From NCBI GenBank assembly GCA_043228905.1, contig JBHGNT010000008.1:21824001-21888000 (forward strand): a stretch of DNA of 64,000 nucleotides, in the 5' to 3' direction. The notes beneath the pieces are model-generated. The model ran no database searches. It was given only the letters and a program-made list of their open reading frames with translations, and was not told where the DNA came from. Positions 7,177 to 61,651 of the stretch are shown here, one piece after another. The DNA comes from Azolla caroliniana (Eukaryota; Plantae; Polypodiophyta). Every line of letters starts with the position of its first letter. Position 1 is the first letter of the stretch. The position numbers and the translations under genes were made by a program.

Positions 7177-10100
7177 TCAGCTCACTTGCTCGCCGATGAG
7201 ATCCAATCCAACTAAGAGAAATGAAATTCCTTGGAATAGAAGAAAATAGAAATGTATACCTTGGACTGAAAGCAAGCTTCGTAGCGCGGCAACCAGTAAT
7301 AGGAAAGCAAGAAAGAGTTCTTTCCTATATATCCGATTGAGCTTCTTTTTCTTGATTGGTTTCGCCAAAGCCGAACTAGATAAAGCATCGAGACCCGATT
7401 CAGATAACCCACGATGAAGAATCTTAGTTTGCTCTAGTTCGGCTTGAGCTTCTCTCTCGACAAGAGCGACTAGATCAGTCTCTGAAGCTCGACCCACTTT
7501 CTTTGTAACTACCCATTCATATGCACTTCCCAGCTGAAATAGCCCTGATACCATTGCATGGAACTTGGTCACCGACATGGTGTTCTCAAAGAGAAGATAT
7601 GGAACTATGAAAGGAAATGATTTCGGTGCCGGAGCAATATTCATTAGTGACATAATGGCAGGAACATAACAAATCACCCATGCGGGTAGTTGTGCCTCAG
7701 GGATGAACATCGTCAATGGAAGAATAATGCAAAAGAGCGTGAACGAATAAAACGGAAGGATGAGCTTCCTTAGTAAAAAGAACAGGAATATCAAGTTCGA
7801 CTTCTTCCAAATCGAAATCTGGCAATTAAAAGAGAGACATTTGATCAGTATCCAACATTAACTCATACACGATATGCTCTACTATATACCAGGCAGACAC
7901 ATTCCAAAACAAACATCATTCAAACCCTTTTAAAAGGTAAAAGCATGTTCTTATCGCAGGAGTAATTATACCGTAAGAACCCCCTCAAGAAATCCAATTT
8001 ACCATCTTAGACATGATTTTAACTTTGACGTGATTATAGACGGAAGACAACCATAAATAAAAAGAAGTTTTTCCCTCTTCATAATGACTTCACTTCTTAC
8101 CTTTGAAGTAATTATGTCAGGCAGACACAATCGAAACAGCTGCATCGGGCCCGAGTGCCAGCGATGCTGCTGCTTTCTATATGCCTCATAGCTCTCAGGA
8201 ACTTCACAGAGACACTGCACATAAGAAGAGTTAATTGATATTAGGATAGAGTAAAAACTTGTATAGACATTCAGATATTCATTAGCCCCAAATTACACAT
8301 ATGATTAAGAGTTCATAAAAACCATCAAAATAACTTAATCTTCTTGCACATATACAGAAACTGAATCAAGTATATAAATATGCAAAACAATATGTGATCT
8401 ATCAACCATGTTATACACATTTGGAGACTGAATGAAGCATGCATATAAGTGTCCAAAAAAAAAAAAAACTATTATGCATTCCTTTGAAAATCATTCATAT
8501 GTACTATCCATTAGTTTCCAAACATTCACATGTACTATGTATTACTTTCAAAAACAATCACATGTATTATGCATTACCTGGACATCGTTAAGGAAGACAA
8601 ATTTCCAGCCATTGAGATGGGCTCGAACAGCGATATCCATATCCTCCACAGTGGTTCGCTCGAGCCATCCTCCCGACTCTTCAAGTGCCTTTATTCTCCA
8701 CACACCAGCTGTGCCATTGAACCCAAAGAAGTTCAACATTGCGCCATTCACTTGCTGCTCAACCTCGAAATGATAACATAAATTGATGTATTGCAGCCGG
8801 GTCAAAAGATTTTCATCTTTGTTAACAAACGACCATCGAGCTTGCACCAACCCAATATCTTCATTGTCCTACAAAATTGTGCCAGAAGGTTATTTATAGA
8901 GCCCAATATCTCGATTATCATACAATCTATATAAGCCAATAAATATCTTCATATGCTACAAAATTGAACAGAGAAAAAAATCTATAGAACCCAATATCTT
9001 CACAACACTACAAAATAGAACAGGGAAAACAATCTACAGAACCCGCTCACTATCTCAATTACAATCTACAAAACAGAGCACAGACAATAAACCTTTACAA
9101 ATCAGAACCCCACTTTCTCAATTATTCTAGGAAATGGAATGCATAAACAACTTTCTAGATCATAACATCTCTACTAGGCTACAAAATGAAATACAGAGAA
9201 TTCTATAACAACTTTAAGGTGTGACGCATCACTGAAAAAGTTGAAATGATATGTCTACCTTGAAGTGAATAATGGTTCGTTTCAGAAAATCAGATTGTGG
9301 TTGGAAATCAGCATCAAAAATCGCTACAAATTCATAATCCCTAACATAATCACAGCTCATAGCCGACTTAAGGTTTCCGGCCTTGTATCCCGTCCTGAGT
9401 AACCGATGTCTATACACAATATTCAGACCTTTCTGATGCCATTTCTGGACTTCAGCTCTGATAAGCATCTGTGTTTCTTTGTCATCGGAATCGTCCAATA
9501 TCTGCACCAGCATCTTGTCTCTTGGCCAATCTAGCTGAGCAACAGCACCTATAGATTGCTGATACACCTGCCAAATAGATGATAAACCATAACATAAGAA
9601 AAATGAATTCTTGAAAATCCACCTCTCTGGCATATAACACATCTCTCACTTCCAGACAGAGACATGAAATGTCTGAGATGTACTGCATCACCCGAGATAT
9701 ATAATATATCTCTCTCATAGATAGAGAGATGATATGTACAAGATCTAGCATCCCTCTACAGCAATTGAGAGTGGGATAGTGCATTAAATTTCAGATACGT
9801 AGCATATCACATAACAAATGTGCTACAAATGTATGCATCTCTAACGTATTTCTCTTTCTCGGATGGATGTACAACATATCTCTCTTGGATATGGATCGAC
9901 AACATATCTTCTCTTATGAGACAGAAACCCATTGTTCATTTTAATCCAACCCTATCTCAATCATACACGCAGCCAATCTAATAATAATATCCAAGCAAAA
10001 AAATAAAGACTCTAAAAAGCCGATCACTCAATCCCAATCAACCACGACCATAATAGTATCTAACACACACAAACTACACACATGAAAAACCTGAACAGAA

Positions 10101-10876
10101 ATACAGAAAAGAGTGGAGCCATCATCATCTACCTCTTTCTCGTTACACATGGGAATCTGCACAAGGACCATAGGGTATCCCGCATAAGGCTGTTCTGCAT
10201 CGCCGGTGTCCAGAGATAGCACTTTCGGCACCGGACGGATTCCCTTGAGCTTGATGTAGACACAGCCAAGGCACTGCGTGACACGATCGAGGGATTGGAT
10301 GAGGAAGAGGACGATGCAAACATTGGCTAAGGACTGCAATGGGGGCCCAAGATAGTTCTCTCGGATATAAATCCACCCCACATAGGTGGACTGCAGGATC
10401 CCACGCACGTCTTCGGAGCCGGGTATGTAGATATTGGGTTGGAAATGCCATCCCTTAACGTGGGCCACAAGCTCAAACCCTAGCATCAACACTGTGGATG
10501 CGAGAAGAACTCTGAGGATGGTGTAGAGCTTACCTCTCTGCCTTTGATCTTCAATCTCCACGCCTTGGCGTAAGATGAGACGTCTGTTAATGGTGGAGAG
10601 CATGCCGAGGAAGGTCTGCGCAGACCACGCCACGCAACCTGCTGCCTGGTGAGCTCTTAGGAACATTATCCACCTGATCTGCTTCGAGTTCTTCCCTTTC
10701 CCTTCCTTCTCTGCAGACCCCAGGTTTAATGGGACCTTCGACTCCCCCGCAGAGGAGCCGTTGGAAAGTGCACCCCCGGTCGACCAGTTCTGAGGTTTCT
10801 CCATCTTTACCACCACAGATGTGGCGTCCATCCGAGTCTCCTTTGGCCATGACAGGTCTGAGCTTGGAGGCGGCAT
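7177..10876 (-). CDS. CSLC: Cellulose synthase-like C (GT2 family; probable xyloglucan beta-1,4-glucan synthase), 5 exons, 699 aa
   Basis: Exons 10876-10133, 9567-9259, 8868-8578, 8214-8101 and 7818-7177 all have GT-AG, phase-0 junctions. Motifs: [64 protein letters not shown] (D,D,D,QxxRW), YEWVVTKK, and C-terminal [10 protein letters not shown]. The long N-terminal extension (VVVKME...KQIRW..L.AH.A.GC) is typical of CSLC rather than CSLA. Confidence 0.96.
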
Positions 10877-11957
10877 ATTGTATCTGACACAGTATCTGAC
10901 AGTTAATCAATCCGATGATGTCTTTCTTATCTTCCTTCACTAATTCTCTGGCTATGGCAGGACCGAATCGCGATCCGCAGTGACTGATATACACATGAGT
11001 AGATCAACAGATCCGTGGCCAAAGCAATCCGAGGCCTTCAAAACTCTGAAATCTGAGAAGACAGGAGGCTTAATGATCTTGAATCTGAGATCAATATGTA
11101 TCCTCCTCCTCCTTCGGCCTCTGAGAAGCTGAAATGTAACTCGAGTCAAACCTTGTATTATGCCTTCACCAGAGAAGGTCGATCTCAATATAGCTAAAGA
11201 CTGTTGTGAGAAGATCGATTTGCGCAGAGGATTGAGTAGAATAATCAGACCTGCTCTCTGCTACTCGTGAGATCTATAGTACAGGCGGCGAGCAAAGATC
11301 GAGGTCGAACCAGAAGATCGAGCTTGAAATGGATTGGATTAGGCAGAAGATGAGCAGAGCAATAGATTGGTTGAAGGAGAAGGAAGGGGTGGGATTATCT
11401 GTCTGAGGAAGGGGATTTTTGGTTTCGATAGGGAAAGCAGACGATTTTGGATGGAACAGACCAAATCAGATCGATGATCTGTCGACTGAGGGGGGGGGGG
11501 GGTTAAACAGGCGCCATTTAAGGAAAATATTCTTCTTTCCTTCCTTTTTCTTTCTTTTTCTTTTTCTCAAATGTGTTTCTTCCTTTTTCTCGATTGTCTT
11601 TCCCTTGGATCTAAAGCGACAAATAGAAGAAGAAGAAGAAGAAGAAGAAGAAGAAGAAAATACAAAAAAAAAAGGAGAGGAAAAAGAACTTTTTCAAGCT
11701 ATGGCGATGGCGCTAGCTTCTGACAAGGGAGAGATGATGTCGGCGATCAGAAGCAAAGGATCTTCTGGGGAGAGACAAGAAGAAGAAGGAAGAAGGAAGA
11801 AGGAAGAAGAAGACTGATATGGCTATGGATAATGAAGGCTGGAGGAGCTTCAAGAAGAAGCTATGGAAGGCTTCAAATTCTCGCCCATTACATTGGAACC
11901 AACAGAGATGCAGGGGAGCGAAGAGAAAGAAAAAAAAAAACCCACAGACAGACAGAA

Positions 11958-23714: not shown

Positions 23715-24144
23715 TGTCAAAGTAAACGTGCGGAAGTGTTCGACAAACCGGCTCAGCCGGATAGCAACAGAAGATGAGAAGAAAAGTTAACACACATAGA
23801 GAGTACGCGTACATAGGACAGAGACAAAGGGAGAGAACGTAAACTCTATTAAAAAATACTCTTGATATTCTGTACATAGAATGTGCTCAGAGAGCACTTT
23901 TATACAAGTCCATAAAGGACTAATAGGTACTTCAATGCTCATACGAGCGACTGACACTAACTCCCAAAAATATGCCTACGTACTAGGCTGGATCCGTAGG
24001 CCTCTAACGGCCTACCGGTTTCAATCCGATCGGCTCCTGGTTTGGGATATCATCCGGACACCGATCCAGTTCTCCGTTCCGGATACTGATCCGGCTCTGG
24101 CTTATTCAGCCGATCCAGATCCGGTTGAGCTTGCTCGCTCAACA
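23715..24144 (-). repeat. 3' LTR of Copia element A
   Basis: TG...CA ends, aligns with 36449-36870, adjacent to the PPT. Confidence 0.92.
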
Positions 24145-24759
24145 GTCCCCCTCAAGCTCAACTTGAGGTCAGATCGTGGTGTCAGTTTCTATGGTAACCA
24201 GTTCTTCCGTCCGATTCCTTCTGGCGTCCTCCTGCCTTGCTTGCGCTCCTCGCCCGGTCTTGTTCCGCTTCCTGCGACCCGTCTGGTTCCGCACACCTCG
24301 ACCTTGTCGGTCGGCTTGTCTGCTCAACATGCCCATTTCAACTTCCTCGCTGTTATGACTCCGGTGCTTGTCAACCTGTTGGCTCCTCCGTGTTGGCGTC
24401 GACTTTCGTTGCGTTCGTGTTCGCTTGGCCTTTAGTAGATCTAGCTCTTCCGAATCCATCTGTTGAACCAAATCGGTTGTCTCTGATTCGTTCCAGCTCT
24501 TGTCTGAGTTGGTAGTCTCCAACTCGTCTTCCGTTTTTAGGCCCTTCACCACATCGGACCACGTCCGAGGTCTTGGCCTTCTTCCGGTCGGCTTTGTCCT
24601 TCTTGACTCTACCGCTGCTGTTGTTTACTCTGACTTGTTCAGATGTGCCGACTCCTTCGGTCAATGCGGCTTCCTTTTTCTGCTTATCTCCCCACTTTGT
24701 TCTTTCTTCCTCTCTGGTTCCTTGTCCGGTGCCATTTGGTGCCATCTATTCCCATTCCT

Positions 24760-25638
24760 ATTCTCCCCCTCAAGTGCGGCACGTCGAGATGCTGAACACC
24801 GAGCATTTCGGTGAAGTGTTGCAACTTGTCCGATTCGAGTAGTTTGGTGAAGATATTGGCAATCTACTGATCCGTCTGAACATATCGAAGTTCAACTTCA
24901 TCGCTCAGGACCCGCTCACACACGAAGTGATAATGCACTTCTATGTGCTTTGTCTAAGCATGGAATACAGGGTTCTTGGTGAGCTGAATGCTGCTCATGT
25001 TGTCACAGTAGATCAGGATCGGGGTCGGTACCTCGATCCGGAGGTCACGCAACAGTCGCCGAAGCCAAATGGGTTCACAGGTGGCATTGGTAGCGCCCCG
25101 ATACTTAGCCTTAGTGCTCGACAGAGCCATTGTCAGCTGCTTTTTGCTACTCCACGCAACAACCACGCTACCTAGAGAAAACATGTAACCGGAGGTGGAT
25201 CAACGATCTGATGCATCACCAGCCCAATCGGCATTGGTATATCCAACTAGCTCTGCAGTTATACCGTGTCGGTATAACAGTCCTCGGTCCTTTGTGCCGC
25301 TAACATACCGGAGTATCCGGTGTGCTCATTGAAGGTGCTCGACGGTCGGCTTCTGCATGAACTGGTTGATCACCTTGATTGGATAACTGATGCCGGGTCG
25401 GGTGATCATCAAGTATATAAGGCTTCTGACAATTTGGCGGAACCGTTTCTCATCATAGGCCGGTTTGGAGTTAGGATGTAGCTTCAGGTTCCGGTCCAAG
25501 GGTGTAGAGATTGGTCTGCATTCTGTCATGCCGAACTTGTACAACATATTCAACACATAATGACGTTGTGAGAGTAATATGCCATTGGGGGTCCGGATCA
25601 CCTCGATCCCAAGGAAATAATGAAGGTCCCCCAGGTCT
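24760..25638 (-). pseudogene. Copia A RT C-terminus and RNase H remnant
   Basis: DLGDLHYFLGIEV, LSQRHYV, SLIYLMITRP, WSSKKQ...SSTKAKY, IYCDNMSSI..KNPVFHA, IANIFTK. Confidence 0.88.
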
Positions 25639-26140
25639 TGTCATGGACACACCAATGCTAGACTACGACAAAGCACAAATGACAAGGCTATGATCAATAA
25701 GGTTACGAACATGGAACTCGACGTGATGAGGCTAGAAACTCGGGAAGTTGGGAACGATGAGATGAGGAACTTAAGACGCTAGGGACAAATACAAGAGCAT
25801 AAAGAAAAAGATGTAAATCAATGAGAGAAGATGAGGCTAAACAAGAATACTAGATTGATGTGTCAATGACTGGGCCCGTTGAATCCCTTGAAAGGGACCA
25901 AGAAGGTTACAAGTATTTATACTGTAAGTTGAAGTACATGCACTAGAATATTTTGAAGAATATTCTAGAACCTTGGAACTTTCTAGAACTTTGTAGATGT
26001 CTAGAGAGTATACCTAGATCATGTACATCTTATACAATGATATGTAGATCAAATATATTTGATACAATGCTCATATGAAGATGGTTGAGCATGATGTATT
26101 GATCATGTGAGGTTGTGAGTTCAATCCTCACCCACTATAT

Positions 26141-26652
26141 TGCTGGGAAATCGGTCCCTCCGGATGGGATCCGGTGATGAATGAAGAGGACCCGGTGAGA
26201 ACCGGAAGAAAAGACATATTTGTAAATATGTTTTGGGTAAGCCTATTGAGGCCATATTTGTAAATAGACTTAAGTTCATATAAGTATAAATATGACTTAG
26301 GGCAATCACTTTGGTAGATGCTGATAGAGAGTATTGTTGTTACATTGTTGTTGTAGAGATAATTGTTGTACAGAGAGAGAGGAGACACAGAGTTATACTC
26401 TATTGTAACCGCCGGTTGGCGAAGATACTGAGCATGAGGTCGTTGCCTCCGAGTCTCTAATTGTACCTTTCTCATATAGTGAGAGTTTGGAGTCTGTGGG
26501 CTCCCGTGGTTTTTCCCTATTTGGGTTTTCCACGTAAACATCCTGTGTACTCTCCTTTGTATTCATCTCTATTTCTATTTCTGTGTTTCATTCTAATCAA
26601 AGTGATTCAAGACTCGGTTGTGGCCGAGCAATATTCCGCGCTATTATCTTCA
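26141..26652 (+). mobile_element. Solo LTR (family D) inserted in the 3' LTR of element B
   Basis: TG...CA ends, TSD TATAT on both sides, TATAAATA box, and the GTGGGCTCCCGTGGTTTT...GGTTTTCCACGT motif; homologous to 37003-37570. Confidence 0.85.
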
Positions 26653-26762
26653 TATATATTTAATGTCATTGTATTGTGACATTCTCCTCCCCTTTATGGC
26701 CGCGTTTTCGAAAGTGTGGTGTAGGGGTGAGCTAAAATAGAAAACCAAAGTACATTGAGGAG

Positions 26763-27520
26763 TGAGTGACCATGAGTAGTCCTCACCAGAAATAAGAGCA
26801 CGGATGAACTCGAGTGACCATGTGTGGTCCTCACTAGATATTGTAACACCAACGGGCGTGAGCGAACATGTATGGTCCTCACCGGAGACTGGAGCACCAA
26901 TGTGAGCGTGAGCGACCATGTTCGGTCCTCACTGGGAATTGGAACACCAACGGGAGTGTGAGCGACCATGCACGGTCCTCACCGGGAACTGGAACACCAA
27001 CGGGCATGAGCGATCATGTATGGTCCTCACCGAAGACTGGAACACCAACGTGAGTGAGCGACCAGGTGCGGTCCTCATCGGGAACTGGAACAACAAAGGA
27101 CATGAGCGATCATGTGCGGTCCTCTCCGAGAATTGGAACACCAACGGACGTGAGCGACCATGTACGGTCCTCACCGGGAATTGGAACACCAACGGGCGTG
27201 AGAGACCATGTATAGGTCTCACCGGAGACACAAACACGAACGGAAATGAGCAACCATGTGCGGTCCTCCCTGGGAACTAGAACACCAATGGGCATGAGTG
27301 ACCATGTGTGGTCCTCACCGGAGACGCGAACAACGGACGTGAGCGACCATGTGCGGTTCTCACCAGGAACTGGAACACCGAGCGTGAGAGACCATGTATG
27401 GTCCTTACCTGAGATGCAAACACCAACGGACGTGAACGACCATGTGCAGTCCTCACCGGAGACATGAACACCAATGGAGGTGAGCGACCCTGTATGGTCC
27501 TCATCGGGATCTGGAACACT
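26763..27520. repeat. Tandem array of about 16 x 48-bp units inside element B
   Basis: Consensus approximately GAGCGACCATGTRCGGTCCTCACCGGGAAYTGGAACACCAACGGGCGT; a 16-aa periodicity is visible in the ORF track. Confidence 0.92.
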
Positions 27521-27639
27521 TGACGACGATGAATGCTAGGCAAAGTAGTGTTGATAACGACACCAATAGGTGTTGCAGATGATGATGTCGAAGATGAAGC
27601 AATGAAAACAATGATGTTGACTCTAAAAGCAATGACTGT

Positions 27640-27885
27640 GACTATGGCAATGATGGAAATAGAGAAATAGATGAAGAGGATAAGAAACACAGAGATTGAG
27701 ACGTTGAGGATAAAAAGAAACACAAAGATAGAGATATAGAGGATGATAGAAAACACAGTGATAGGGACAAAGATGATAAGAAACACATAGATAGGGATGA
27801 TGATGATAAGAAACACATAGATAGAGATGAAAATGATAGGAAACACATGGAGAAGGATGACAATGACAAAAAACGCAGAGATAGG
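27640..27885. repeat. Degenerate 27-33 bp purine-rich tandem repeats (GATGATAAGAAACAC...GATAGAGA), continuing at 28628-28870
   Basis: Repeated GATAAGAAACACA(T/G)AGATAG units, interrupted by the hAT MITE. Confidence 0.7.
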
Positions 27886-28619
27886 TAGCAATGGGCCTGG
27901 TTCGGTTTCGGTTCGGTTCGGTTTCTTGGCCTTCAAACCAAACCAAACCATTTATTAATAAAAAAAACCGAACCAAACTGTTTTAAAATTTATGAAGCCA
28001 TTTAAACCAAACCGTTAAACCAAACAGTTTAAAGCATAGGAGAAACCAAACCGTTTACGAAAAATTTAAAACCAAACCAAACCATTTTTTATTGATATTA
28101 ATCATTATACTTATTATAAATTTGTGTGAGAAAATCATCGTAAATTTATTCATCATACTTATTATAAAATTTGTCATCATACTTATCATAATTTTGGTCA
28201 TCATACTAATCATAAATTTGATCATCATACTAATCATAAATTTGATCATCATACTTATCATACTTGAACATCATAAATGAAAAAGAGACTCTACATATAA
28301 TACATATAAAATCTAATAAGTTAAAACAAGAGTTTAAAATTAAAAGTTGAAAGTTATAACTTATAGAAAATATTTATGAGTATTTTTTAACCTATAAACC
28401 TATAAACCTTTAAACCTTTAAACCGAACCACATAAACAAAGACCGATAAGCCGCTAAACTGCTAAACCGGTCAATTCAAAACCGAACCGAACCGAAACCG
28501 AAACCGATTAGTAACATTTGAAACCAAACCAAACTGTTTAGTTATCTTTGAACCTATAAACCGTTAAGCCACGGTTTTTCGGTTCGGTTCGGTTTGAGCC
28601 GAAACCTGGCCCATTGCTA
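27886..28619. mobile_element. hAT-superfamily MITE (734 bp)
   Basis: TIRs TAGCAATGGGCC...GGCCCATTGCTA, perfect 8-bp TSD GAGATAGG, subterminal AACCG/GGTTC repeats, AT-rich core with ATCATACT repeats. Confidence 0.92.
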
Positions 28620-29127
28620 GAGATAGGAATGTGGAAGATGATAAGAAGTGCAAAGATAGGGATAATGATAAGAAATGCGGAGATAGATATGAACTAAAAA
28701 ACAAAGACGATGATGAGGAGAAACTAAAAAGACAGAGACGACGACGAGAAGAAACTAGGAGATAGAGATGGCGAGGAAGATAGGAAACGAAGGGATGTTG
28801 ATGATGGTAACTCTGGAAGCAAGGACAGTGACGATGGTAACTCTAAAAGCAAGGGCAATGACGAAGATGGGTGATGCTTCCAATTGGAAGGGATTCAAAC
28901 TATCACAGAGACACCAATGCTAGACTACGATAAATCACAGATGACAAGGCTACGACCGATAAGGTTACGAATGTGGAACTTGACGTGATGAGGCTAGAAA
29001 CTCGGGAACAATGAGATGAGGAACTTAAGACGCTAGTGTTGGGGACACGACCGTCAATGCGGAAGTGCAAGCAACATTCGTGATGAAGAAGAACCTATGT
29101 ATGCACGAGCAAGATAGACACAGAGGG

Positions 29128-29163
<36 letters not shown>

Positions 29164-29553
29164 CACAAAGGAACTGTTTTATTCCAATAGCAACAGTTAC
29201 AAATGACAACCAACCCTCACTAAAGGTTAAAAAGTCACTTTATATAGTGACTATCCTAGGGCAACTGCTCTTTATGCTATTTACAGAAATAGCCCGAACT
29301 TGGGCTGTCCAAAGGGACAATGTGAATACGGCCATTATACACTCGTATTCAACACTCCCCTGTAATGGGCGTATACATGGGTTATCTAAAGAATTACAGG
29401 TATATATACAAGGTTTATCGGACATATCAGTTTTGTCAGAGTCGGCAAGATCCGAAGACAGAGGACCGAACCGGTCGGGTCGGAAGAGCTAAAGTCGATC
29501 CTTAGAGAACCGATGTCGGTGGTCCGAAACCATCATGTGCTGTGTGTCCGACT

Positions 29554-32500
29554 TTAATCGGACCGATTTTTCGTTACGCCCATCCGGTGCCGAAGGGACC
29601 GGAAACGATCCGCTGAAAGACACTTGGTCATTCCATCTGTGACATTATCGGTTGTGGATATCTTCTCTAGACCGATTTTCCCTGAAATGACGTAGTCCCG
29701 AACAAAGTGATATCGAACGTTGATATGCTTAGAGGCGTTGTGGTGAACCAGATTTTTTGACAAAGCAACAAAACCTTGACTGTCGCTGTAGACATCTGGG
29801 GCCGAGTCGGAGTCGACCTATCGAAACGTGTGCGCCAACTGACTGAGCCATAAAGCTTCTTTTGCCATGTCAGACACAACTACATATTCCGCTTTGGTCT
29901 TTGAGGTGGCTGTGCACTCTTGAAGTTTTGACTTCCACGAGATTGCTCTATTGTCAAATTTGAAACAGTATTCGGTTGTTGATTTCTGATTGTCCACACA
30001 ACCGACGAAGTTCGAGTCGATGTAACCGACTACGCTTGAGGTTGAGTTCGGCCTGAAAAGAATGCCGTGGTCTTTTGTGCCAACTAGATATCTGAACACA
30101 TGCTTGACTGTGTTCTAGTGAGATCGGCCAGGGTTGTGCATGAATCTGCTAATGACTCCTACGGCGTGAGAAATATCAGGCCGTGTCGCAACCATCGCGT
30201 ACATGAGGGAGCCGACTGCCAGTGCATACGGTACCAACTTCATATCTTCTCCCGCTGGACCGGATGTCGGACAATCTCGCTGAGACAACCAAAGGTTAAT
30301 GGGGAGCACGGTCGAAGCAGACTTGGCCGATTGCATGTTGAAGCGTTCTAAGACACATCCGATGTAGTCGGTTTGAGACAAGAAAAGTTGTTGTGTATCG
30401 CGATACCGACTAATCTTCATACCAAGTATGTGTCTTGCCGGACCGAGGTCCTTCATGGAAAACTTCAACCGCAGTTGCCGAACGAGTTCGGTGAGCTCTC
30501 CGGCATGCCGACCGGAGAGTAGCATGTCGTCCATGTAGATGATGAGGAAGACGGGAGACCCGTCTTGAGCTGTTTTGGTGAAGAGACAGTGGTCCTCATC
30601 GCTCTTTGAGAAGCTGACTGATTGGATCAAGTCGTCGAACTTCTTGTACCACTGTCGGGGTGCCTGTTTTAGGCCGTAGAGACTCTTCTTGAGTCGGCAG
30701 ACTAGATGTTCCTGGCCGGATGCCACAAAGCCTTTCGGCTGCTCCATATAGATTTCCTCCTGTAGGTCACCGTGGAGGAATGCTGTTTTACATCTAGCTG
30801 AATCAGCTCCAAGTTGTTGGCGGCCACGACGCCGAGCATGAAACGAAGGGTCGTCATTTTCACCACTGGTGAAAAGATTTCGTCGAAGTTGACGCCATAT
30901 TCTTGTCGAAATCCCTTCGCAACTAATCTGGCCTTGTACTTTGGGGTGGTCGAGTTGGACATCTCTTTTAGTCGATAAGACGCACTTACACGGAAGAGCA
31001 CGTCGATTCTTCGGTAATTCGACCAAGTCCCAAGTCTTGTTTGCCCGAATGGAGGCATTTCCGTCATTTTCACCACTGGTGAAAAGATTTCGTCAAAGTC
31101 GACGCCATATTCTTGTCGAAATCCCTTCGCAACTAATCTGGCCTTGTACTTTGGGGTGGTAGAGTTGGACGTCTCTTTTAGTCGATTGACCCACTTACAC
31201 GGAAGAACAGGTCGATTCTTCGGTAATTCGACCAAGTCCCAAGTCTTGTTTGCCCGAATGGAGTGCATTTCCGACTCCATCGCCAGATGCCATGTGGTTG
31301 AATCGGCAAATGCCGATGCTTCTTCATAAGACGTCGGTTCGCCGGCGTCGGTAAAGAAAATTCCGGGAGAGTACCTCTCCGGAGGTTGCGACAGTCTCTC
31401 GGATCTGCGAGGTATGACTGGACTAGTTGCACCGGGTGTCGATGTCGGATGGTCGGGAACAGAGCCATTCGGCTGTGTCGAATCGGTGGATTCGGTGCGA
31501 GAGTTGTCGGTTACCCGTGAAACCGATCTCGTGTTGTGGGTTGGGCCGTCAGGAAGGGTTGGCACTTCGGAAAATATTACCCTTCAGACTTCAATAGGCC
31601 TTTCGGCCGTTTTATGCATAGTCGACTCGTTGAACACAACGTCTGAACTTCGGACGATTTGTCTGTGTTTGGGGTGCCAGAGTTGGTATCCAATCTCGCC
31701 ATCGGGTCCATATCCAAGAAAAACACATTTCCTTGACCTTGGTTCGAGTTTCCGGCAACCGAAGATCCTCAATTTATCATAATTCGGCTTACTGCCGGTC
31801 CATATTTCCTGAGGTATTTGAAGTCCTAGAGGTCTACTTGGCGACATATTGATTATGTGTACTGCCGTAAGTAGAGCCTCCGCCCAGAAGCCATTCGATA
31901 GTCCAGAGTGTTGGAGCATGGATACTACGCGTTCTTGAATCGTCCGATTCATGCGTTCAACAATTCCGTTCTGCTCCGGAGTATAGGGTGCCGTATATTC
32001 ACGTCGAATGCCGCCTTCCCGACCGAATTTGATGAATTCTTCAGACTTGAATTCTCCTCCATTGTCGGTTTGGAGACATTTCAGTTGCCGACCGGTCTGA
32101 TTTTCGACCACTGCAAGCCATTAAGAGAAGATCGAGAACACCCGATCTTTTGTTCTGATGGGGTATGCCCACACCTTCCGACTCGAGTCATCAATAAAAC
32201 TGACGAAGTACGAAGCACCGTCGAGAGACTGATGTGGCATCGGGCCACAGACGTCCGAATGGACCAAATCGAGGGGACTCGATTCTCTTGGTGCTGATGT
32301 CGGATGTGGTTTGGCTACCTGTTTGCCGTACTGGCAATGCTCGTAGAATTGGTGATCTGAGAAGGAGAGTTTGGGGATGTAATCGGCTCTGGATAGGTGC
32401 GTTATGCCGGCCTTGCTGAGGTGTCCAAGTCGTCCGTGCCATAACAATGACACGGGGATATCAACCAAAAATAAGTCACCCTCTTTGAGTGTGACATATA

Positions 32501-33755
32501 AAGGATACAAGCAATGTACCTTTGGTCCTCGAGCAAGCAGGAGGTTCCCTTTGTGGAGTGTCCACCCTCCTGATGAGAATCCAGCACGGATGTCGGCTTC
32601 GTCATGTTGTCTGACTAAGATCAAGGGACTTGAGAACTCAGGAACGTGTCAGACGTTGTGTAGTACGAGTATAGAGCCTCCTGGAAGATTGAGCTCTACG
32701 GTGCCGATTCCGATTATAGCACAGTGCTGGGAGTTTCCAACTCGAACTGAGTCAGAGTGCCGGTCCGAGTATTGCTGAAACTGAGATCGGTGAGGTGTCA
32801 CATGATACGATGCGCTTGAGTCCAGGAGCCATGTGCTAGATTCCTCAGTCGTAAGCAGAACTTCTGATTCGACTGAGTTCTCTATGGACAATATGTTCGG
32901 GTCGGTCGTCAAGATTTCGGCTGAAGAGCCGACGTAGTTGACCTCCTCATGCCGGCTACTCTTATGATCCGCTCTTTGAGCTTTGTCGGTTTTTGCTTTG
33001 AGTGCCCGACAGTCGGCTTTGATGTGTCTCGGTTTCTTGCAATAGTTGCAGATTCAGTTGTCCCGAGACTTGCTCCAGCTTCGCTTACTGTTCGGTGGTC
33101 GGGAAAAGCTTCTTCCCCGGTTGTTCGATCGGTTGGTCGAGCCTTGTACTACATAAGCTTCATTTGCCGAGTCTTTGGCGAAAGACTTTCTCCGAGCTGC
33201 TTCAGTCAGGATTGCGCTCGTGACTTCGGAGTACTTAACAGTAGTTGTTGAAGCATTGCACACGGTTGTAACGAAAGTTTCCCATGAAGAGGGGAGACTA
33301 CTCATGAGTATCATTGCTCTGAGTTCATCCTCGATTTCCGTCCCCTGAGACGAGATTTGGGAGCTTATGCTTTCGTAATCGTTGAGGTGTGCCTGAACCG
33401 AATCAAATTCTTTCATCTGCAGGTTGTAGATGTGCCGGATCAGATACATCCTCGTTGCGGCAACCTTCTTTTCATAAGTTTCCGATAGTGTTTTCCAAAG
33501 TTCAAACGCTATCGTGCATGATTGCACTGTGAAGTACACTAACTCTGACATGTGCATCCGAATCGTGGCACGAACGATTCTGTCCAGCTTTAGCCACTCA
33601 TTTGCCTTGTATGCTTCTGGAGGATTTTCATTCTCAATCAGGTCTATCTGATCCTTGACTATGAGATAGTCCTGCATTTGTTCCTTCCAGAAGTTGAAGT
33701 TCGAACCATCAAAACTCCTTAGAATCATCTCCGATGAGTTGGATGTTGATGCCAT
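29554..33755 (-). pseudogene. Copia C gag-pol polyprotein with a few stops and frameshifts
   Basis: FDGSNFNFWKEQMQDYL (gag), WLLDSSASYHVT (PR), LWHGRLGH / LDLVHSDVCGP / TDNGGEF / PEQNGIVERMNRT (INT), YKARLVAKGF / YGLKQAPRQW / YMDDMLL (RT), SWKSKLQ / KHINVRYHF / NVTDGMTK (RH). Confidence 0.93.
30852..31272. repeat. About 210-bp tandem duplication within the RT of Copia C
   Basis: The KARLVAKGF...FSPVVKMT segment is present twice (30852-31061 and 31062-31272). Confidence 0.9.
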
Positions 33756-34916
33756 CTGCTTCGGTTTCGGTTGATAAGACTTGGTTCGGAGTTGACTACG
33801 AACCTTAGTGGGGTGCAGTCGGTCGACTCACCCGATATCGTTCTAGTCGGTTTTGAACCTGAGACGGTTTGGTTTCAGATACTTGTTGTTGAACTTGCTC
33901 GGAGTGACTCCGGTAACTTGAGGGACAGAACCAGCTGGTCTTCCCAAATGTTGCTGAGTCGGAGTGAGCCCGGTTAGCTTCCGATTGTATGCCGAATACC
34001 GATTACGCGAAACCGATAGTTTGGGCCGATTTTGCTTCAGACGACTGCAACGATGAGAGGGATAGATCCAACTGATCCTCCCGAATGTCGATCAGCCGAG
34101 TGAAGCACGAAGTGGTTGTTGCTCAAGGAGCTCCCCTCAAGCGGTTACAATCATAGGAACAAAGTACAACCGACTAGCTTACTCCAATTTGTGATTTAAC
34201 ACAGTGAGATGCGAGCTTTTGTTTTTCTTCTCCCTTCTCTGTTCTTCAAAGAAACCGAAAACAGAATGTTGTGTTGTGCGATGACGGTCGGCAGTGGGTT
34301 GAAGAACCTCCAATGCTCTGATACCAAATGTTGGGGACAAGGCCGTCAATGCGGAAGTGCAAGCAACATTCATGATGAAGAAGAACTTGTGTATGCACGA
34401 GCAAGATAGATACAGAGGGAGAGAGAGAGAGAGAGTGAGGCACAAAGGAACCGTTATATTCCAATAGCAACAGTTACAAATGACAACCAATCCTCACTAA
34501 AGGTTACAAAGTCACTTTATATAGTGACTATCCTAGGGCAACTGCCCTTTATGCTATTTACAATGGGACGATGTGAATACGGCCATTATACACTCGTATT
34601 CGACAACTAGGAACCAATACAATAGCATAAAGACAAAGATGTAAATCAAGGAGAGAAGATGGGGCTAAACAAGAATACTAGATTGATGTGTCAATGACTA
34701 GTGTTGAATCCCTTGAAAGGGACCAAGGAAGTTACAAGTATTTATATGCTGAGTTGAAGTACATGCATTACTTGAAATAGATAATCTACTAATAATCTAC
34801 TAAGATATACATAACATGAGCATATATTTGGACGTGTTGGTTAGAACACAACACTTGACTATATATAAGAGGTCAAGAGTTCAAATCTTGACATGATTGT
34901 TGTCATGTTTGTGACA

Positions 34917-36350
34917 ATCCTGAAGCCTCTGGTAATTAACGTGGCCGATTCGCTGATGCCAAAGATCGATGTCCGATTCAATCTTCTGTCCTTTGGAAAA
35001 CATAGCGGTGTCGACGTCATTAATGTTGAGGATGAACATCGTCCCTTCTCTGCGTCCTTTCACAATTATCCGGCCTTCTTCCTCGATGAAGCACTCGAGG
35101 TGTGTAAACCGCACCTGCATCGCCTGGTCGACGATTTGTCCAACTGACACCAGGTTCTTTGTGATAGTCGGAACGTGTAGTAGGTTCATCAGCTTCCCCT
35201 TTTGTCCTACATGGCTTAAAGGGACTTCTCCGACATGCACAATCAGGTGAGGGGTGTCGTCTCTTGTTTCGCCAATCCCCAGTTGTTCCGGTTTCTCTAA
35301 AATTGAGAACTACTCTTCATGGCTCGTCATATGGTTAGATGCTTCGGAATCAACATACCACACTTCCTCCGATCTGGAACTGGCCCCTTGTGCTTCATCA
35401 CAAAGGTTGGCCCCTTTCTGGTTTTCCCAGTTCCGAATCCTTCCGATGCTTCAGCATAGTGCGAGCTTTGCTGGTTCCCTTGTCCGGCCTTGCCGGATCC
35501 GGATTCATCTGAATCGGCGCGCTTCTTCCAACACTCGCTTTCTTGGTGGCCTTTCTTGCCATAGTACCAACATTCCGTGTCGGCCTTTGATTGCCGGTTT
35601 TTGGCTCCGACTTGACTCCCCCTACTTGTGGAGGGTTCAGAATTGTTGTTGGCACCGTCTCTGTGCTTTCGATTCTGCTCTTGACGGCCGCCTCCATTGC
35701 GCATCGACCCACCTCGTCCTCCACGCCCACGAGGTCGATCCACCTCCGTGTACAACATCCGACTGTCTGATTGAGTGGTCCTCGACCCACTCGCGTGGTT
35801 TTCTTCGACCATCAACATGGATTGTAAGTCGAAGAAGGACGGTGGCTTCTCTCGCGTGCAGATCGCCATCCGGATTCGCCCGTACCGTTGTGCTAGACCA
35901 TCGAGGCAGATTTGAATCATCTCCTCTTCATCCACCGTCACGTTGATGGACCCGAGCGTGTCGCAAATCTCCTTTATCTTGGTGGTGTGGTCGGTCACGG
36001 ATATATCCTCTGTCGGATATTGTTGAGCTCTTGTCGGAGCTGCAACTTCCGTGCCGTGGTACTAGTGGCGAAAATCTTCCAGAGATTTTCCCAGGCCTCC
36101 TTTGGCGTTTTTGCATCTACTAGCTGAGCATCTGATCGTGCACACCGGATACGAGGCAGTACAATACTTGGCTTGCTCCTTCTCCCATGCCGGGAAGTCC
36201 TTGTGTGCCGGCTCTGGTGCGACCTCATTGGTTCCTTCCACATAGTTCCAATATCCATGCCCCAACGGGTATTGCTGCATTTTATATGACCAGGATGCAT
36301 AGTTGCTCCGGTCGAGCTTTTATGTGGGAAGCGAACTTGCCATACCTCTG
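34917..36350 (-). pseudogene. Copia A gag-protease-GAG-pre-integrase remnant (frameshifted)
   Basis: MQQYPLGHGYWNYVEG, TPKEAWENL...RKLQLRQEL, zinc knuckle CWYYGKKGHQESECW, LLHVPTITKNLVSVGQ, LWHQRIGHVN. Confidence 0.88.
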
Positions 36351-36448
36351 TCCATTTCGGTTCTTTGTCTGATGTTGCCAGGTATTAGGGTTTGTCTTCG
36401 AAGCGTTTGTCGATTGAAGAGGTTCTCAACCCTCGCGCTTTGATACCA

Positions 36449-36870
36449 TTACAAAGTAAACGTGCGGAAGCATTCGACAAACCGGCTCAGCCGGATAGCA
36501 ACAGAAAATGAGAAGAAAAGTTAACACACACAGAGAGTACGCATACATAGGACAGAGAGAGAGAGAGAGAGAGAGCATAAAATCTATTAAAAAATACTCT
36601 TGATATTTTGTACATAGAATATGCTCAGAGAGCACTTTTATACAAGTCCATAAAGGACTGACAGAAGTACCGACAGGTACTTCAATGCTCATATGAGCAA
36701 TTGACACTAACTCCCAAAAATATGCCTACGTACTAGGCTGGATCCGTAGGCCTCTAACGGCCTACCGGTTTCAATCCGATCCGACTCCTGGTTCCAGATA
36801 TCATCCAGACACCGATCCGGCTCTAGCTTATTCAGTCTATCTGGATCCGGTTGAGCTTGCTCGCTCAACG
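36449..36870 (-). repeat. 5' LTR of Copia element A
   Basis: Aligns with 23715-24144 and lies immediately upstream of the PBS; terminal dinucleotides are mutated. Confidence 0.92.
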
Positions 36871-37002
36871 CATGTGAAATGTGGATCGAGACAACCAAGA
36901 CTTGAATTAGGGAAGTTGGCTTTGTTGATGAAGGATTGTAGTAACTAGAAAACTTCTTTAGATTGAGGTTATTGACTTGACTCTTGATTTGTGCGATATG
37001 AT

Positions 37003-37570
37003 TGTTGAGATATAGGTCTCTCTGGATGGGGACCAGTCCAATCAGATCGAAGAAGTCGAAGAAGAACGAGCCGGATCGGGGTGATCCGGAAGGATATCCG
37101 GAAACCGGATCGGATGAACCTGGAAGGAGTCCGGCGGATCCGGTATGAACCGTGAAGTGAGACGGATTTGTAAATATGTTTCTCATGGGGCGTTGAGGCC
37201 ACATTTGTAAATAGCCCATAAGTTATGTAAGTATAAATATAACGTAGGGCAATCATCATGTATTGTGTGTGTGGTCATTGTATGCAAGTTGTATTGAGAG
37301 AGAACAGAAGGTAGTCATTCTGCTATAACCGCCTGTTGGTGAAGACAGAGGGCTCGAGGTCGTTGCCTTTGAGCTCCTCATTGATGTATCTCTCCTTTCA
37401 GATAATGATTATTGGAGTCTGTGGGCTCCCGTGGTTTTGCCTTGTTTTGAGGTTTTCCATGTTAACATTCTATGTTGACTTATTTCATGTGTAAGTGTGC
37501 CTCAAAATATTTGTTTTCTACTTGAGTTCTTCCATTGTACCTTAGAGATGCAGTTGTGGCTGAGCATCGA
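37003..37570 (+). mobile_element. Solo or truncated LTR of family D
   Basis: Starts TGTTGAG and shares ATTTGTAAATA, TATAAATA..TAGGGCAATCA, GAGGTCGTTGCC and GTGGGCTCCCGTGGTTT blocks with 26141-26652; 3' end and TSD not resolved. Confidence 0.75.
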
Positions 37571-38329
37571 TTACTGTCATGTGTGTTTACGTGGAAGTGA
37601 CTTGGTGCAGTGTTTGTGTGTGCACAAATTTTCCGATGTATTTGTTATAAATGTGAGCGTGAATTAACATGTGTGTGGGCTTGTGAATTTATTTGAGTGC
37701 TATTGCATGTGCAAATGTGTGTTTTGTATCGAATTACATGTGTATGTATTAATCTAGAAGTTTTCTTGATGTGCTCACGTGTGTGTTTCTACTATCATGG
37801 GAGCACGCTTGACACGAAACATTTGTGTGAATGTTCCTATATGTGCATGCATGAAATGATTGTGTGTGAATGGATAATATGGGTATGTAGGTGTAAATAT
37901 TTGTTTTTATGTATACATGTGTGTGTATACATTTTGATTGTTAGATATTTAGGAGGGTGGGGGGGGGATGGTAGTTTAAAAATCATGACTTATGGGGATA
38001 TTTTTGGGCATATAAGGGTTTCCCTTAGGGTGTGGGGGGATGGGGACCTTAGGAAAAATGGGGGGGGCGGGGGGGGGAGGGAAGTAGGCAATAAGTGTGA
38101 AGCGTTTCAAAAAGGAGAACCTAGGGATGATTTAGGGTTGCCCAAGTGTCATAGACATCTATACAAAATATCATAAGTATATATGTAAAATATCATAATC
38201 ATCGTAGAAAGTGGGAGGGGGATTTGAACCCATGACCTCTATGGTGGGGTTGGGGTAATTGGGGGAGCAGGTTTTTGATGTCATACTTTAGTCAACATTG
38301 TGGAGAAGTTACAACTCTTGCATTGATAG

Positions 38330-39613: not shown

Positions 39614-39860
39614 GGGTTGCAAAGATGCATGCGAAATTTGTCTTTATGTAAAAAAATGTGCAAATAACATGAGACTAATAGGTACTAGAGAGTGTGATTT
39701 TGATGGGTACTTTAATATCTCACATCATATCTTTTCATTCCTCTTTTTCTTTGGGACATTAAAGTACCCATCAAAATCACACTCTCTCATACCTATTAGT
39801 CCTATGTTATTTACACATTTTTGTACATAAAGACAAATTTCACGTTCATCTTTGCACCCC
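39614..39860. repeat. Long inverted repeat / foldback MITE-like element (arms about 110 bp, loop about 28 nt)
   Basis: 39614-39722 is the reverse complement of 39751-39860 with scattered mismatches. Confidence 0.88.
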
Positions 39861-42204: not shown

Positions 42205-42745
42205 GCCAAATTAATTAAAAATTAAATAAATAAAAATACACTAAATTAAATAAACATTTATGTTTAATTAATGAAATAAATAAATAAGAAATAGTTAAGC
42301 CATTAGATTAAATAAACATTTAATTTAAGTGAATTAAATCAATAAAAAAACATTAATTAAACCATTAAATTACATAAACATTTAAGAGATAAAAAAAGTT
42401 AGCCCAAAAACCTATAAACCGTTAAACCAAACCACTTAAACCTAGAAATCGATAAACCCTAGTTTTAGAACTAAACTGAATTGTTTATTAATAATTAAAA
42501 TCAAACCAAACCATTTAATTATTTTGGAACTTATAAACCTTTAAACCATGGCTTAACGGTTCGGTCCGGTTCGAGCCGGAACCGGGCCCATCGCTACGAG
42601 TCACGGAAGTAGGTGGCATTAGAATTTCACAATCGCTAAGCGGTGATTTGGGTGAACACATGGGGAATCGGTAATGGTTCGGTTCGGTTCAAACCGAGCC
42701 GCGAAAACCACAACTTAACGGCTTAACGGTTTGATGGTTTAGGTT
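42205..42745. mobile_element. hAT MITE remnants related to 27886-28619, immediately upstream of the aspartic protease promoter
   Basis: One TIR, GGGCCCATCGCTA, ends at 42596; AAACC/GGTTC subterminal repeats; AT-rich core; a second subterminal block at 42676-42745; no partner TIR found. Confidence 0.7.
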
Positions 42746-50456: not shown

Positions 50457-51839
50457 ATGCAGAATTTGCAGCAAATCGTTCATCCTAATTCCGATCATAT
50501 TGTAGCCTACATTGCCAATCATTTTCATTCACCCTTTTTATTAATACCGCATTATATGATTGTGCAGTATTATACTCTCCCCCACACCATCTCAATTATG
50601 CATGCAAGATATTATCTCTTGTATTCCATTATTAACAGCAATCAATATTACTTGCAGCCTCACCATGATTATCACCGATCAACAATCAGAACACAATTAC
50701 ACCGCAATCTTTCCATCACTGGAAACCATGGGAGGCAGCCTCAGAATCACCACTCAAATGTTAAAACCATAAAGAACCATGTGAACATACATAAAGCAAG
50801 CTTGAAATTGGTTGCAGAGAAACAGAAATCTGGCTTTGTATTCAAGTTATCCTTCGCTTTCGATGCAAACGTCCCTGGAAAGTAAGAAAGAACACATTGG
50901 AGTTCCAGTTTTCTAATGTCAAATTTTCATTTTAATCTCATTTCATTTAGCTTTATTTCTTTTCGTTTCTCTGTATATGTTTCTGATCCATCCATCAGTA
51001 CAATGGCAGATTCAAAATCTACTTAGTAACGGATGAGGAATCGCTGCGGCGAGACAATCGATGTAACAGTAAATCTAAGCAGATTAAACTACGAGAATCG
51101 ACATTTCCTGCAGGATTTGTACAAGAATTCCTAGACAATGACCTTGCTCTGGATAATGCTAACTTTGAGGAAGAAGGATCGATATCATTAGCGAAGAAGA
51201 AAATGATGATGGTAGTGAAGGCTGAGATCGATGCAACAGAGTTGCAGAACTTACGCAGTGGTTCTGGTTCAGCAAAAGGACCAGATTCTCATGCAATTGC
51301 ACAGATTACCCATGTTGGACTGACCATAGCCACGCACATCAAGGACCATGGCCAGATTCCCAAGGATAATGGCCAGATTCCCAAGAATCGTGGCCAGATT
51401 CCCAAGGGAAATGGTCAGATTCCCGTGAATAGGGATCCGATTCCGATGAACCATGGTCAGATCAAGATGGACATACATGATGGTCAGGAAAATAAACGGC
51501 ATGGCCAGTTTCAAGTGGAGGACGGTCCGATTCACAAGCAGGACCTTGTCCTGGATGCAGTAGTGGAGAGGCAGATGATTGTCGCGGAGGCAGGGTGCGA
51601 TGATGAGAACGAAGGGATGGTGTACGAGGTGCATGAGATCTACGGTGGTGGTGGTGGTGGTGGTGGTGGCAATCTCAAGAAGCCAAGAGGTGCAGAGTCA
51701 CGTGACAGCGATGGCGATGGCGATGGCGATGGCGATGGCGATGGTTGCTGCGTGGTATGCTTGGGGGAGCCACGTGACACGCTGCTCTTACCCTGCAGGC
51801 ACATGGTAACCCTAAATCGCGCATCTTTCTGCTCTGACC

Positions 51840-51886
<47 letters not shown>

Positions 51887-51984
51887 GTTTAGGGTTTAGG
51901 GTTTAGGGTTTAGTTCTGTCCACACCCATGGGACATTTGGGCCATATATGCATATGGATTGTATCAGGCCGGCCGATCATGGGT

Positions 51985-61300: not shown

Positions 61301-61651
61301 AAGCTCCATTCGATGGACGCACGTCTGGTTCCGAGGGTCATCATCATCATCATCATTATTAAGACGAGGAGAAGAAGACGAAGCCGCCATGGCACTCGCT
61401 GTATTTTTGTGGCTATTCTCTGCTCTCCGAGCATGATGAAGATTAATCGAAGAATTAGCTGAGGAAGACCTCGGAGTTCCAGAAGAATCAGTAACCATGG
61501 CGTGCGCAATGGCGTTCTCCTTCTCATGAAGAGCAGCAAGGGCAGCTCGGGCTCGAGTTCTGACGCCAAGCGAGCTTCCATGTCCATGGCAGAAATGTGA
61601 TACTTCTTGCATCTTCTCTACACCTTTACCATTCCTCATGTATTTCCCCAT
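58316..61651 (-). CDS. KRP: ICK/KRP (Kip-related) cyclin-dependent kinase inhibitor, 4 exons, about 541 aa
   Basis: Exons 61651-60617, 60537-60473, 60307-59852 and 58385-58316 (phases 0, 2, 2). N-terminal MGKYMR, SLGVRTRAR and MELRS motifs. C-terminal CDK/cyclin-binding domain PSSGEIEAFLANAEQQQRRRFMDR|YNFDPLREKAFRGRYEW. Confidence 0.92.
59123..59680. repeat. 188-bp tandem repeat x3 in KRP intron 3
   Basis: CTCTCGTCAGGCCATTGCTTAGTAT begins at 59123, 59311 and 59499. Confidence 0.92.

What the first reader, a model, noticed from the sequence alone, without database searches (positions are those of the whole stretch)
26068..34895. Both divergent U3 regions of element B carry an antisense tRNA-like (Pol III A/B-box) module
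Seen in sequence (+ strand, antisense to the element): the left LTR at 26068-26135 reads GCTCA-tatgaagatggt-TGAGC (D-arm-like, TGGTTGAGC A-box), CATGAT-gtattg-ATCATG, tgaggtt, then GTGAG-TTCAATC-CTCAC (a perfect T-arm and B-box). The right LTR at 34834-34892 reads GTGTT-ggttag-AACAC, CTT...AAG, aggt, then CAAGA-GTTCAAA-TCTTG. The two U3s are otherwise unalignable, yet both keep this module about 25-30 nt from the LTR end (ignoring the later solo-LTR insertion) with different stem sequences, which suggests selection on structure or TFIIIC binding. Established analogy: Cassandra TRIMs carry 5S rRNA Pol III promoters in their LTRs. Inference: a tRNA-derived analogue that may give Pol III transcription, TFIIIC insulation against silencing, or act as a decoy. 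No acceptor stem is evident, so these are not tRNA genes.
Basis: partly seen in the sequence, partly recalled or inferred. Interest (0 to 1): 0.78.

Follow-up and report, generated by a model that had tools for sequence, protein, structure and literature searches.

The report
Backwards tRNA promoter box in LTRs
A non-coding jumping gene of a fern-like plant carries, back to front at the outer edge of its terminal repeats, a worn and likely tRNA-derived stretch whose polymerase III "B-box" is kept across otherwise reshuffled repeat versions, likely as a protein-binding DNA site rather than as a folded RNA or the element's own promoter.

Summary
Both motifs are present and real. [quoted passage not shown] Its two window LTRs belong to different subtypes; with no target duplication and the host element's integrase missing, this copy is likely a recombinant. 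In 57 family LTR anchors from public contigs, all 33 that reach the LTR end carry the module, antisense, at the U3 5' end. Across four subtypes the six invariant B-box positions are fixed, against 15 of 116 background columns. The stems do not covary, the 'perfect T-arm' is particular to the window copy, no copy has a full A-box, and no free SINE copy was found. The element has a TATA box and a self-priming site, so it is likely Pol II-driven; unlike Helenus or Cassandra, the module is not its promoter. Best reading (0.4): a TFIIIC-binding, barrier-like DNA element; neutral relic 0.25. No binding or expression data exist. Unchecked scan notes report similar modules in fungal LTRs.

The parts
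25639..26681 (-). 3' LTR of element B (subtype L), ends TGTCA...TGACA, interrupted by a solo LTR of another family
   Evidence: (family contigs begin matching at 25639)
26067..26138 (+). tRNA-like module, subtype L: D-loop word 26082-26090, variable-loop word 26110-26114, B-box 26119-26127; antisense to B
26141..26652 (+). later solo LTR of an unrelated family with 5-bp target duplication (related LTR near 37136-37475); strand inferred
26682..26695 (-). polypurine tract fixing the orientation of B
26682..28900 (-). non-coding internal region of B: about 48-bp tandem array 26759-27519, low-complexity tract, TA-flanked MITE-like insert 27888-28617
   Evidence: (no Pfam match for the ORF at 27277-27951)
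28888..28898 (-). predicted self-priming site, 2 nt past the 5' LTR, complementary to 34704-34714
28901..34916 (-). 5' LTR of element B (subtype R), interrupted by copia element C
29037..34605 (-). nested full-length copia element C with its own two LTRs, tRNA-type PBS, PPT and a 4-of-5 target duplication; not part of B
34704..34746 (-). TATA box (34739-34746) and, 32 nt downstream of its first base, the predicted transcript 5' end and self-primer (34704-34714); same layout in the left LTR (25914-25921, 25879-25889)
34817..34898 (+). tRNA-like module, subtype R: D-loop word 34838-34848, variable-loop word 34870-34874, B-box 34879-34887; antisense to B
23718..36869 (-). host copia element A (LTRs about 23718-24143 and 36449-36869); B sits between its pre-integrase region and mid-RT, and the integrase region is missing
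   Evidence: domain reading of the junctions is by eye

Best explanation
Element B is a non-coding LTR retrotransposon whose LTR subtypes all keep a likely tRNA-derived B-box, antisense, at the outer end of U3, where it likely works as a DNA binding site for TFIIIC that would help keep the element's own predicted Pol II promoter open. Shown: the position, the orientation, presence in all intact U3 ends examined, fixation of the six invariant box positions across four subtypes, lack of stem covariation, an incomplete A-box, a TATA box about 140-250 nt inward, and an 11-nt self-priming complement. Inferred: origin from a tRNA or tRNA-SINE head; selection acting on replicating master copies (inserted copies decay, also at the box CpG); TFIIIC binding; a barrier or open-chromatin effect like that of yeast ETC sites; mobilisation in trans by a self-priming autonomous element that was not found.
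For: All 33 of 57 anchors that reach the LTR end carry the module; the other 24 are cut by contig ends or broken, and none shows an intact end without it. In six unanchored alignments of four subtypes the same 6 of 9 box columns are invariant, exactly the positions fixed in the recalled B-box consensus, while the two free positions differ by subtype; background 15 of 116 columns. A perfect box is found in 30 of 41 copies. Departures at the six positions are 4.5% vs 10.3% (p 0.033) and 4.4% vs 9.2% (p 0.086) elsewhere in the module (cells not independent). The module survives exchange of the whole TATA-proximal block (subtype S2 vs R) and shortening of the LTR end to 7 nt past the box. B-box binding dominates TFIIIC affinity, and B-box-only ETC sites act as barriers in yeast (PMC12409998, passages). 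No covariation and no full A-box (0 of 41) fit a DNA site better than an RNA or a full Pol III gene.
Against: No binding, chromatin or expression data. Within subtypes the module (0.73-0.89 mean identity per 15-nt bin) is conserved no better than the R/TATA region (0.76-0.95), and the whole module, not only the box, is conserved. An unbiased shared-word search across subtypes did not single out the boxes; it returned AT-rich mid-U3 words. The cross-subtype test is partly circular for subtypes R and L, where the box was first noticed; S is close to R, and T rests on one copy. 11 of 41 copies have a broken box; three related copies share the same C-to-T change. The loci are few and partly re-assemblies of the same young copy. 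ETC-like function in plants is an extrapolation.
Confidence: 0.4

Rival explanations
1. Neutral relic: a tRNA or SINE head entered U3 once or twice and is carried along. Its apparent conservation reflects recent ancestry and constraint on the LTR end (terminal TGTCA/TGACA repeats, hairpins), not the box.
For: The stems do not covary; the A-box is half lost; inserted copies show CpG decay in the box; the subtype-R hairpin stem reuses the terminal TGTCA/TGACA words; the shared-word test did not pick the boxes. An unchecked scan note (e1-9852194) reached this reading for a fungal element.
Against: Subtype R and L modules have diverged until a profile of one does not detect the other above shuffles, yet all six invariant positions match; no intact U3 end lacks the module.
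Confidence: 0.25
2. Working Pol III promoter that makes a short antisense RNA or fires outward from the 5' LTR, for self-regulation, as a decoy, or to mark Pol III-like sites for other elements.
For: tRNA-like spacing from the D-loop GG to the box (35-36 nt in 17 of 19 subtype-L copies, 40-42 nt in 15 of 22 R/S copies); a run of four T within 30 nt downstream in 11 of 19 subtype-L copies; one copy matches the whole tRNA model weakly (19.1 bits, E 0.064).
Against: No full A-box in 41 copies; four T in only 2 of 22 R/S copies; nested breakpoints in the loci show no clear clustering upstream of the module (too few to test).
Confidence: 0.17
3. RNA-level role: on the element's genomic RNA the module is complementary to tRNA D- and T-loops and would pair with co-packaged tRNA to aid strand transfer or packaging, as recalled for the HIV-1 U3 tRNA-like segment and the Ty3 bipartite primer site.
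For: The antisense orientation next to the PPT fits; the conserved words are the universally conserved tRNA loop sequences.
Against: The element appears self-primed and has no tRNA primer site; the subtypes differ at positions a specific tRNA would fix; both analogues are recalled, and searches with reads 79 and 80 did not retrieve them.
Confidence: 0.12
4. Chance resemblance: the motifs are not tRNA-derived.
For: ARAGORN finds 0 genes at default and 0 of 41 down to 85% threshold; no tRNA hit in 3 of 5 short Rfam scans; bare B-boxes are at chance frequency; fold z-scores are only -1.6 to -2.2.
Against: At relaxed thresholds 22 of 41 modules are called against 3-7 in shuffles; weak tRNA hits; D-loop, variable-loop and T-loop words occur in tRNA order and spacing in four subtypes.
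Confidence: 0.06

Closest known systems
Helenus (TRIMp3; Kojima 2024, PMC10886601; read: parts 1-4 of 6 of the text, searched passages, passages of supplement file 1)
   Same: [quoted passage not shown]
   Different: Helenus is 311-1263 bp and tRNA-primed, keeps both A- and B-box, and in the seven named consensus LTRs shown the tRNA part reads in the sense direction as the presumed promoter. Here the unit is over 2 kb, the module is antisense at the U3 5' end, the A-box is partial, and a TATA box with a self-priming site marks a separate predicted Pol II start.
Cassandra and Ajax TRIMs (as described in PMC10886601)
   Same: Small-RNA gene sequence inside the LTR; tandem arrays occur (Cassandra arrays cited in PMC13570524, passages).
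   Different: 5S-derived; Cassandra is transcribed from that promoter. No 5S match here.
Self-priming Tcn1 / Tf1-Sushi chromoviruses and TAR copia (Neumann 2019, PMC6317226; Novikova 2010, PMC2864245; passages)
   Same: At least 10 nt starting 0-5 nt past the 5' LTR complementary to the LTR (the criterion in PMC6317226) is met, with compensatory changes between two subtypes.
   Different: B has no coding region to place it in a lineage; those papers place plant Tcn1 in mosses and clubmosses and did not detect it in ferns by PCR; the passages read mention no tRNA-like LTR segment.
ETC (extra TFIIIC) sites and tRNA-gene insulators (PMC12409998, passages)
   Same: A B-box kept without a working A-box; proposed barrier function.
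   Different: Those are fixed genomic sites shown by occupancy in yeast and mammals; here the site is carried by a mobile element and occupancy is untested.

Membership tests
Helenus / TRIMp3 | tRNA-derived sequence inside both LTRs | tested here: met
   module in both window LTRs and in 33 of 33 intact U3 ends; tRNA ancestry weak but above shuffles
Helenus / TRIMp3 | TRIM size (screen under 1000 bp; reported range 311-1263 bp) | tested here: not met
   LTRs of 375-608 bp among the loci listed plus an internal region over 1.1 kb
Helenus / TRIMp3 | boxes A and B both conserved | tested here: not met
   perfect B-box 30 of 41, full A-box 0 of 41
Helenus / TRIMp3 | module oriented to transcribe the element | tested here: not met
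   antisense to the PPT-defined strand; Helenus examples are sense
Helenus / TRIMp3 | PBS complementary to a tRNA | tested here: not met
   the sequence after the 5' LTR is complementary to the LTR itself; no comparison with a host tRNA set was possible
Helenus / TRIMp3 | PPT and 4-5 bp target duplication | tested here: met
   PPT; perfect 5-bp duplication at solo LTR L049 and, by reading, L013; several other apparent solo LTRs and the window copy have none
Cassandra / Ajax | 5S rRNA-derived LTR segment | tested here: not met
   no 5S match at E up to 10
tRNA-derived SINE insertion | own target duplication, tail and free-standing copies | tested here: not met
   no full copy outside LTR context in 199 kb; that DNA was selected for LTRs, so a rare SINE elsewhere is not excluded
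tRNA gene | cloverleaf passing ARAGORN or the Rfam cut-off | tested here: not met
   best 19.1 bits against a cut-off of 29
Tcn1 / Tf1-Sushi chromovirus derivative | self-priming site | tested here: met
   11-nt complement at offset 2 in 10 of 41 LTR 3' ends listed (most of the rest are followed by flanking DNA) and in the window
Tcn1 / Tf1-Sushi chromovirus derivative | chromodomain | tested here: inconclusive
   a 34-44 aa stretch before the PPT of two subtypes recalls a chromodomain tail but has no Pfam chromo match
Tcn1 / Tf1-Sushi chromovirus derivative | RT/INT phylogeny | not testable with these tools
   no coding partner among the 60 loci; no genome held
ETC-like TFIIIC site | conserved B-box without a functional A-box | tested here: met
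ETC-like TFIIIC site | TFIIIC bound, Pol III absent, barrier activity | not testable with these tools
   needs ChIP or CUT&Tag and a reporter

The most novel reading that the evidence does not exclude
A Pol II-driven, self-priming plant retroelement has captured tRNA promoter heads more than once, at the same place and in the same backwards orientation, and uses the B-box as a portable TFIIIC insulator against silencing: a mobile ETC site, and possibly a general habit of self-priming chromovirus LTRs from fungi to ferns.
Probability: 0.2. Interest if true: 0.78.

Novelty: new variant of a known kind. Interest (0 to 1): 0.47.

Why it matters
Known small-RNA-bearing LTRs (Cassandra, Helenus, Ajax) are thought to use the captured sequence as their promoter. 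This family keeps the B-box in an orientation and position that cannot make its genomic RNA, which separates TFIIIC recruitment from transcription. It offers a natural, multi-subtype test of whether transposons use TFIIIC to resist silencing in plants. It also points to self-priming LTR elements in a fern, a group where Tcn1-type elements were not detected in the two papers consulted. If the module is a passenger, the value falls to a new annotated repeat family.

Tried and rejected
No genome is held. Viral contig scan: 0 matches. Sequencing runs: no RNA holder listed, which says nothing on expression; both read layouts were DNA contigs, whose summed depth is no copy number, so depth was not used as evidence. 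Rfam over 24000-38000: 4 weak unrelated hits, no tRNA; short scans gave weak tRNA hits in 2 of 5 and none. The RNAalifold consensus gave no cloverleaf (-0.11 and -5.49 kcal/mol, covariation terms near zero). The shared-word test across subtypes did not isolate the boxes. Profiles of subtypes R and L did not cross-detect, so common ancestry of the two window modules is not shown. Chromodomain remnant not confirmed. The RT search of element C gave 86% best identity to unnamed proteins and did not name the host. Rejected: 'two LTRs diverged in place' (no target duplication, deletion in element A, both subtypes widespread); 'independent SINE'; 'selection on cloverleaf stems'. A landing-pad role could not be tested: too few nested insertions. 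Literature searches found Helenus but no report of an antisense tRNA or B-box module in U3 of a plant LTR element; the library lacks most subscription papers and Repbase entries. PMC3362945 and PMC12789967 (passages) held nothing relevant. Scan look-ups returned nothing.

Full report
Setting. The window is plant DNA. A cellulose-synthase-like C exon at 10120-10876 has its best named relatives in ferns (Adiantum and Ceratopteris, 53-58% identity among the top named hits), ahead of liverworts, clubmosses and seed plants. I therefore call the host fern-like. No assembled genome is held.

Anatomy. A copia element A (LTRs about 23718-24143 and 36449-36869, minus strand) contains element B, which runs from 25639 to 34916 on the minus strand. 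B's orientation is fixed by a polypurine tract at 26682-26695 directly before the LTR start at 26681. The 3' LTR (25639-26681) holds a solo LTR of another family (26141-26652, 5-bp duplication; the empty form is seen in 3 of 4 runs). The 5' LTR (28901-34916) holds a complete copia element C (29037-34605). B's interior is non-coding: a tandem array of about 48 bp, low-complexity tracts and a MITE-like insert. B has no target duplication (GGTCT against ATCCT), and A's sequence jumps from pre-integrase to mid-RT across it. The window copy is therefore most likely a recombinant of two insertions (inference). This explains why its two U3 ends differ.

The observation. All quoted motifs are present. 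The left T-arm is the only perfect canonical one in the window (1 against 0.05 expected); the right hairpin is one base out of register. Bare B-boxes are at chance level (15 against 12.8); the D-loop word with a box at tRNA spacing occurs 2 times against 0.20, with a pattern tuned on these sites. Neither segment is a tRNA gene: ARAGORN 0; Rfam tRNA 13.9 bits, E 1.5 for the left and nothing for the right.

The family. A 19-nt motif from the R region, chosen independently of the module, retrieved 60 metagenome loci with 66 matches and 57 distinct anchors. Some are re-assemblies of one young copy, so the counts overstate independence. Of the 57, 33 reach the LTR end and all 33 carry the module; 3 carry it without a visible end; 5 have it cut by a contig end or an insertion; 10 contigs end too early; 6 LTRs break before it (the fuzzy classes were corrected by eye for L005, L007, L020 and L056; L020 has a short look-alike of the LTR end and is the one possible exception). 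Both window types are common (R and L), and further types exist (S, S2, U, Q, T). Related LTRs are also covered by contigs of four coded organisms. No full free-standing copy was found in 199 kb of loci and window, and no SINE-like duplication or tail flanks the module.

tRNA ancestry. It is weak but above noise. One S2 copy aligns to the whole tRNA model at 19.1 bits, E 0.064, below the cut-off of 29; two other copies gave no tRNA hit. With relaxed ARAGORN thresholds 5 of 41 and 22 of 41 modules are called, against 0-1 and 3-7 in five shuffles. The distance from the D-loop GG to the box is 35-36 nt in 17 of 19 L copies and 40-42 nt in 15 of 22 R/S copies.

Sequence or structure. An alternative L stem set is 91% paired but has no compensatory change. 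The central pair of the left T-stem forms in 2 of 19 copies. In contrast, unanchored alignments of four subtypes (11, 13, 2 and 1 copies) fix the same 6 of 9 box columns in all six runs. These are the invariant positions of the recalled B-box consensus, against 15 of 116 other columns in the first run. The box is perfect in 30 of 41 copies; a full A-box is found in 0 of 41. Against this: within subtypes the module is conserved about as well as the R/TATA region, though better than mid-U3 (0.45-0.74); a shared-word test did not pick the boxes out; and the test is partly circular for R and L. The LTRs are mosaics. R and L share the promoter block but have modules that do not cross-detect by profile, while S2 shares R's module beside an unrelated promoter block. 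Either deep divergence or separate captures could give this; both leave the box in place.

The element's own promoter. Each LTR has a TATA box. In 10 of 41 listed LTR 3' ends, 11 nt starting 2 nt past the LTR are complementary to an LTR stretch that begins 32 nt from the TATA box (in 7 of those 10; 35 nt in one, TATA not matched in two), in two sequence variants that differ by compensatory changes. Most other ends are followed by flanking DNA. The window copy shows the same layout. This meets the self-priming criterion of PMC6317226 (passages), used there for Tcn1 chromoviruses and TAR copia. In two tandem arrays an R-type LTR is followed by the other variant's site, so the match is not universal. 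The genomic RNA is thus likely a Pol II transcript, and the antisense module cannot be its promoter. A possible chromodomain remnant was not confirmed, so the superfamily stays open.

Mechanism. The best reading (0.4) is a B-box kept as a DNA site for TFIIIC at the LTR's outer edge, acting like the B-box-only ETC barriers of yeast (PMC12409998, passages) to protect the Pol II promoter. Binding and barrier function are inferred, not shown. Rivals: neutral relic (0.25), outward or antisense Pol III transcription (0.17; four T downstream in 11 of 19 L but 2 of 22 R/S copies), pairing with host tRNA at the RNA level (0.12; analogues recalled, not retrieved), and chance (0.06).

Known relatives and novelty. 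Helenus (PMC10886601) already establishes tRNA-derived LTRs in non-autonomous elements, including one in Selaginella. B fails membership on size, A-box, orientation and priming. Ten literature searches found no description of an antisense U3 module in a plant element, within a library that lacks most subscription papers. Unchecked notes of this scan describe tRNA-promoter boxes or an antisense tRNA relic in LTRs of probably fungal elements; they are leads only. Verdict: a real feature and a new variant of a known kind, with sequence-level conservation of the B-box and no functional proof; interest 0.47.

Noticed in passing
L009:2808-6602, L003, L038: Tandem arrays in which two LTR subtypes alternate (3283-bp period in L009); some LTRs are followed by the self-priming site of the other subtype. 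These may be collapsed assemblies.
   Followed up: partly
window 28888-28898 with 34704-34714; L003:1525 and 3197: Self-priming site with compensatory changes between subtypes, suggesting a Tf1/Tcn1-like or TAR-like priming mode in a fern-like host.
   Followed up: yes
L011:1192-1323, L003:985-1118: A short stretch before the PPT of subtypes S and T that recalls a chromodomain C-terminus; no Pfam support.
   Followed up: partly
window 27888-28617 and about 42400-42600: TA-flanked MITE-like insert with 10-bp terminal inverted repeats; a related fragment lies near 42485-42596.
   Followed up: partly
window 38221-38240 (minus); L006:2081-2125; L057:50-75: Other short tRNA-like variable-loop or T-loop words outside family B, hinting that worn tRNA-derived repeats occur elsewhere in this genome.
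   Followed up: partly
L020, L056: Two LTRs break off into foreign DNA right at the upstream edge of the module, near where a Pol III start would lie; two cases only.
   Followed up: partly
window 30852-31273: 210-bp tandem duplication (95% identical) inside the RT region of copia element C.
   Followed up: no
window 7177-10906 (minus), 59806-61708 (minus), 50987-51892 (plus): Host genes: a cellulose-synthase-like C gene, a probable KRP/ICK cyclin-dependent kinase inhibitor (weak Pfam CDI hit) and a RING-finger exon.
   Followed up: partly
window 39614-39860: Inverted repeat with 109-nt arms, 89% complementary, 29-nt spacer; probably a MITE.
   Followed up: no
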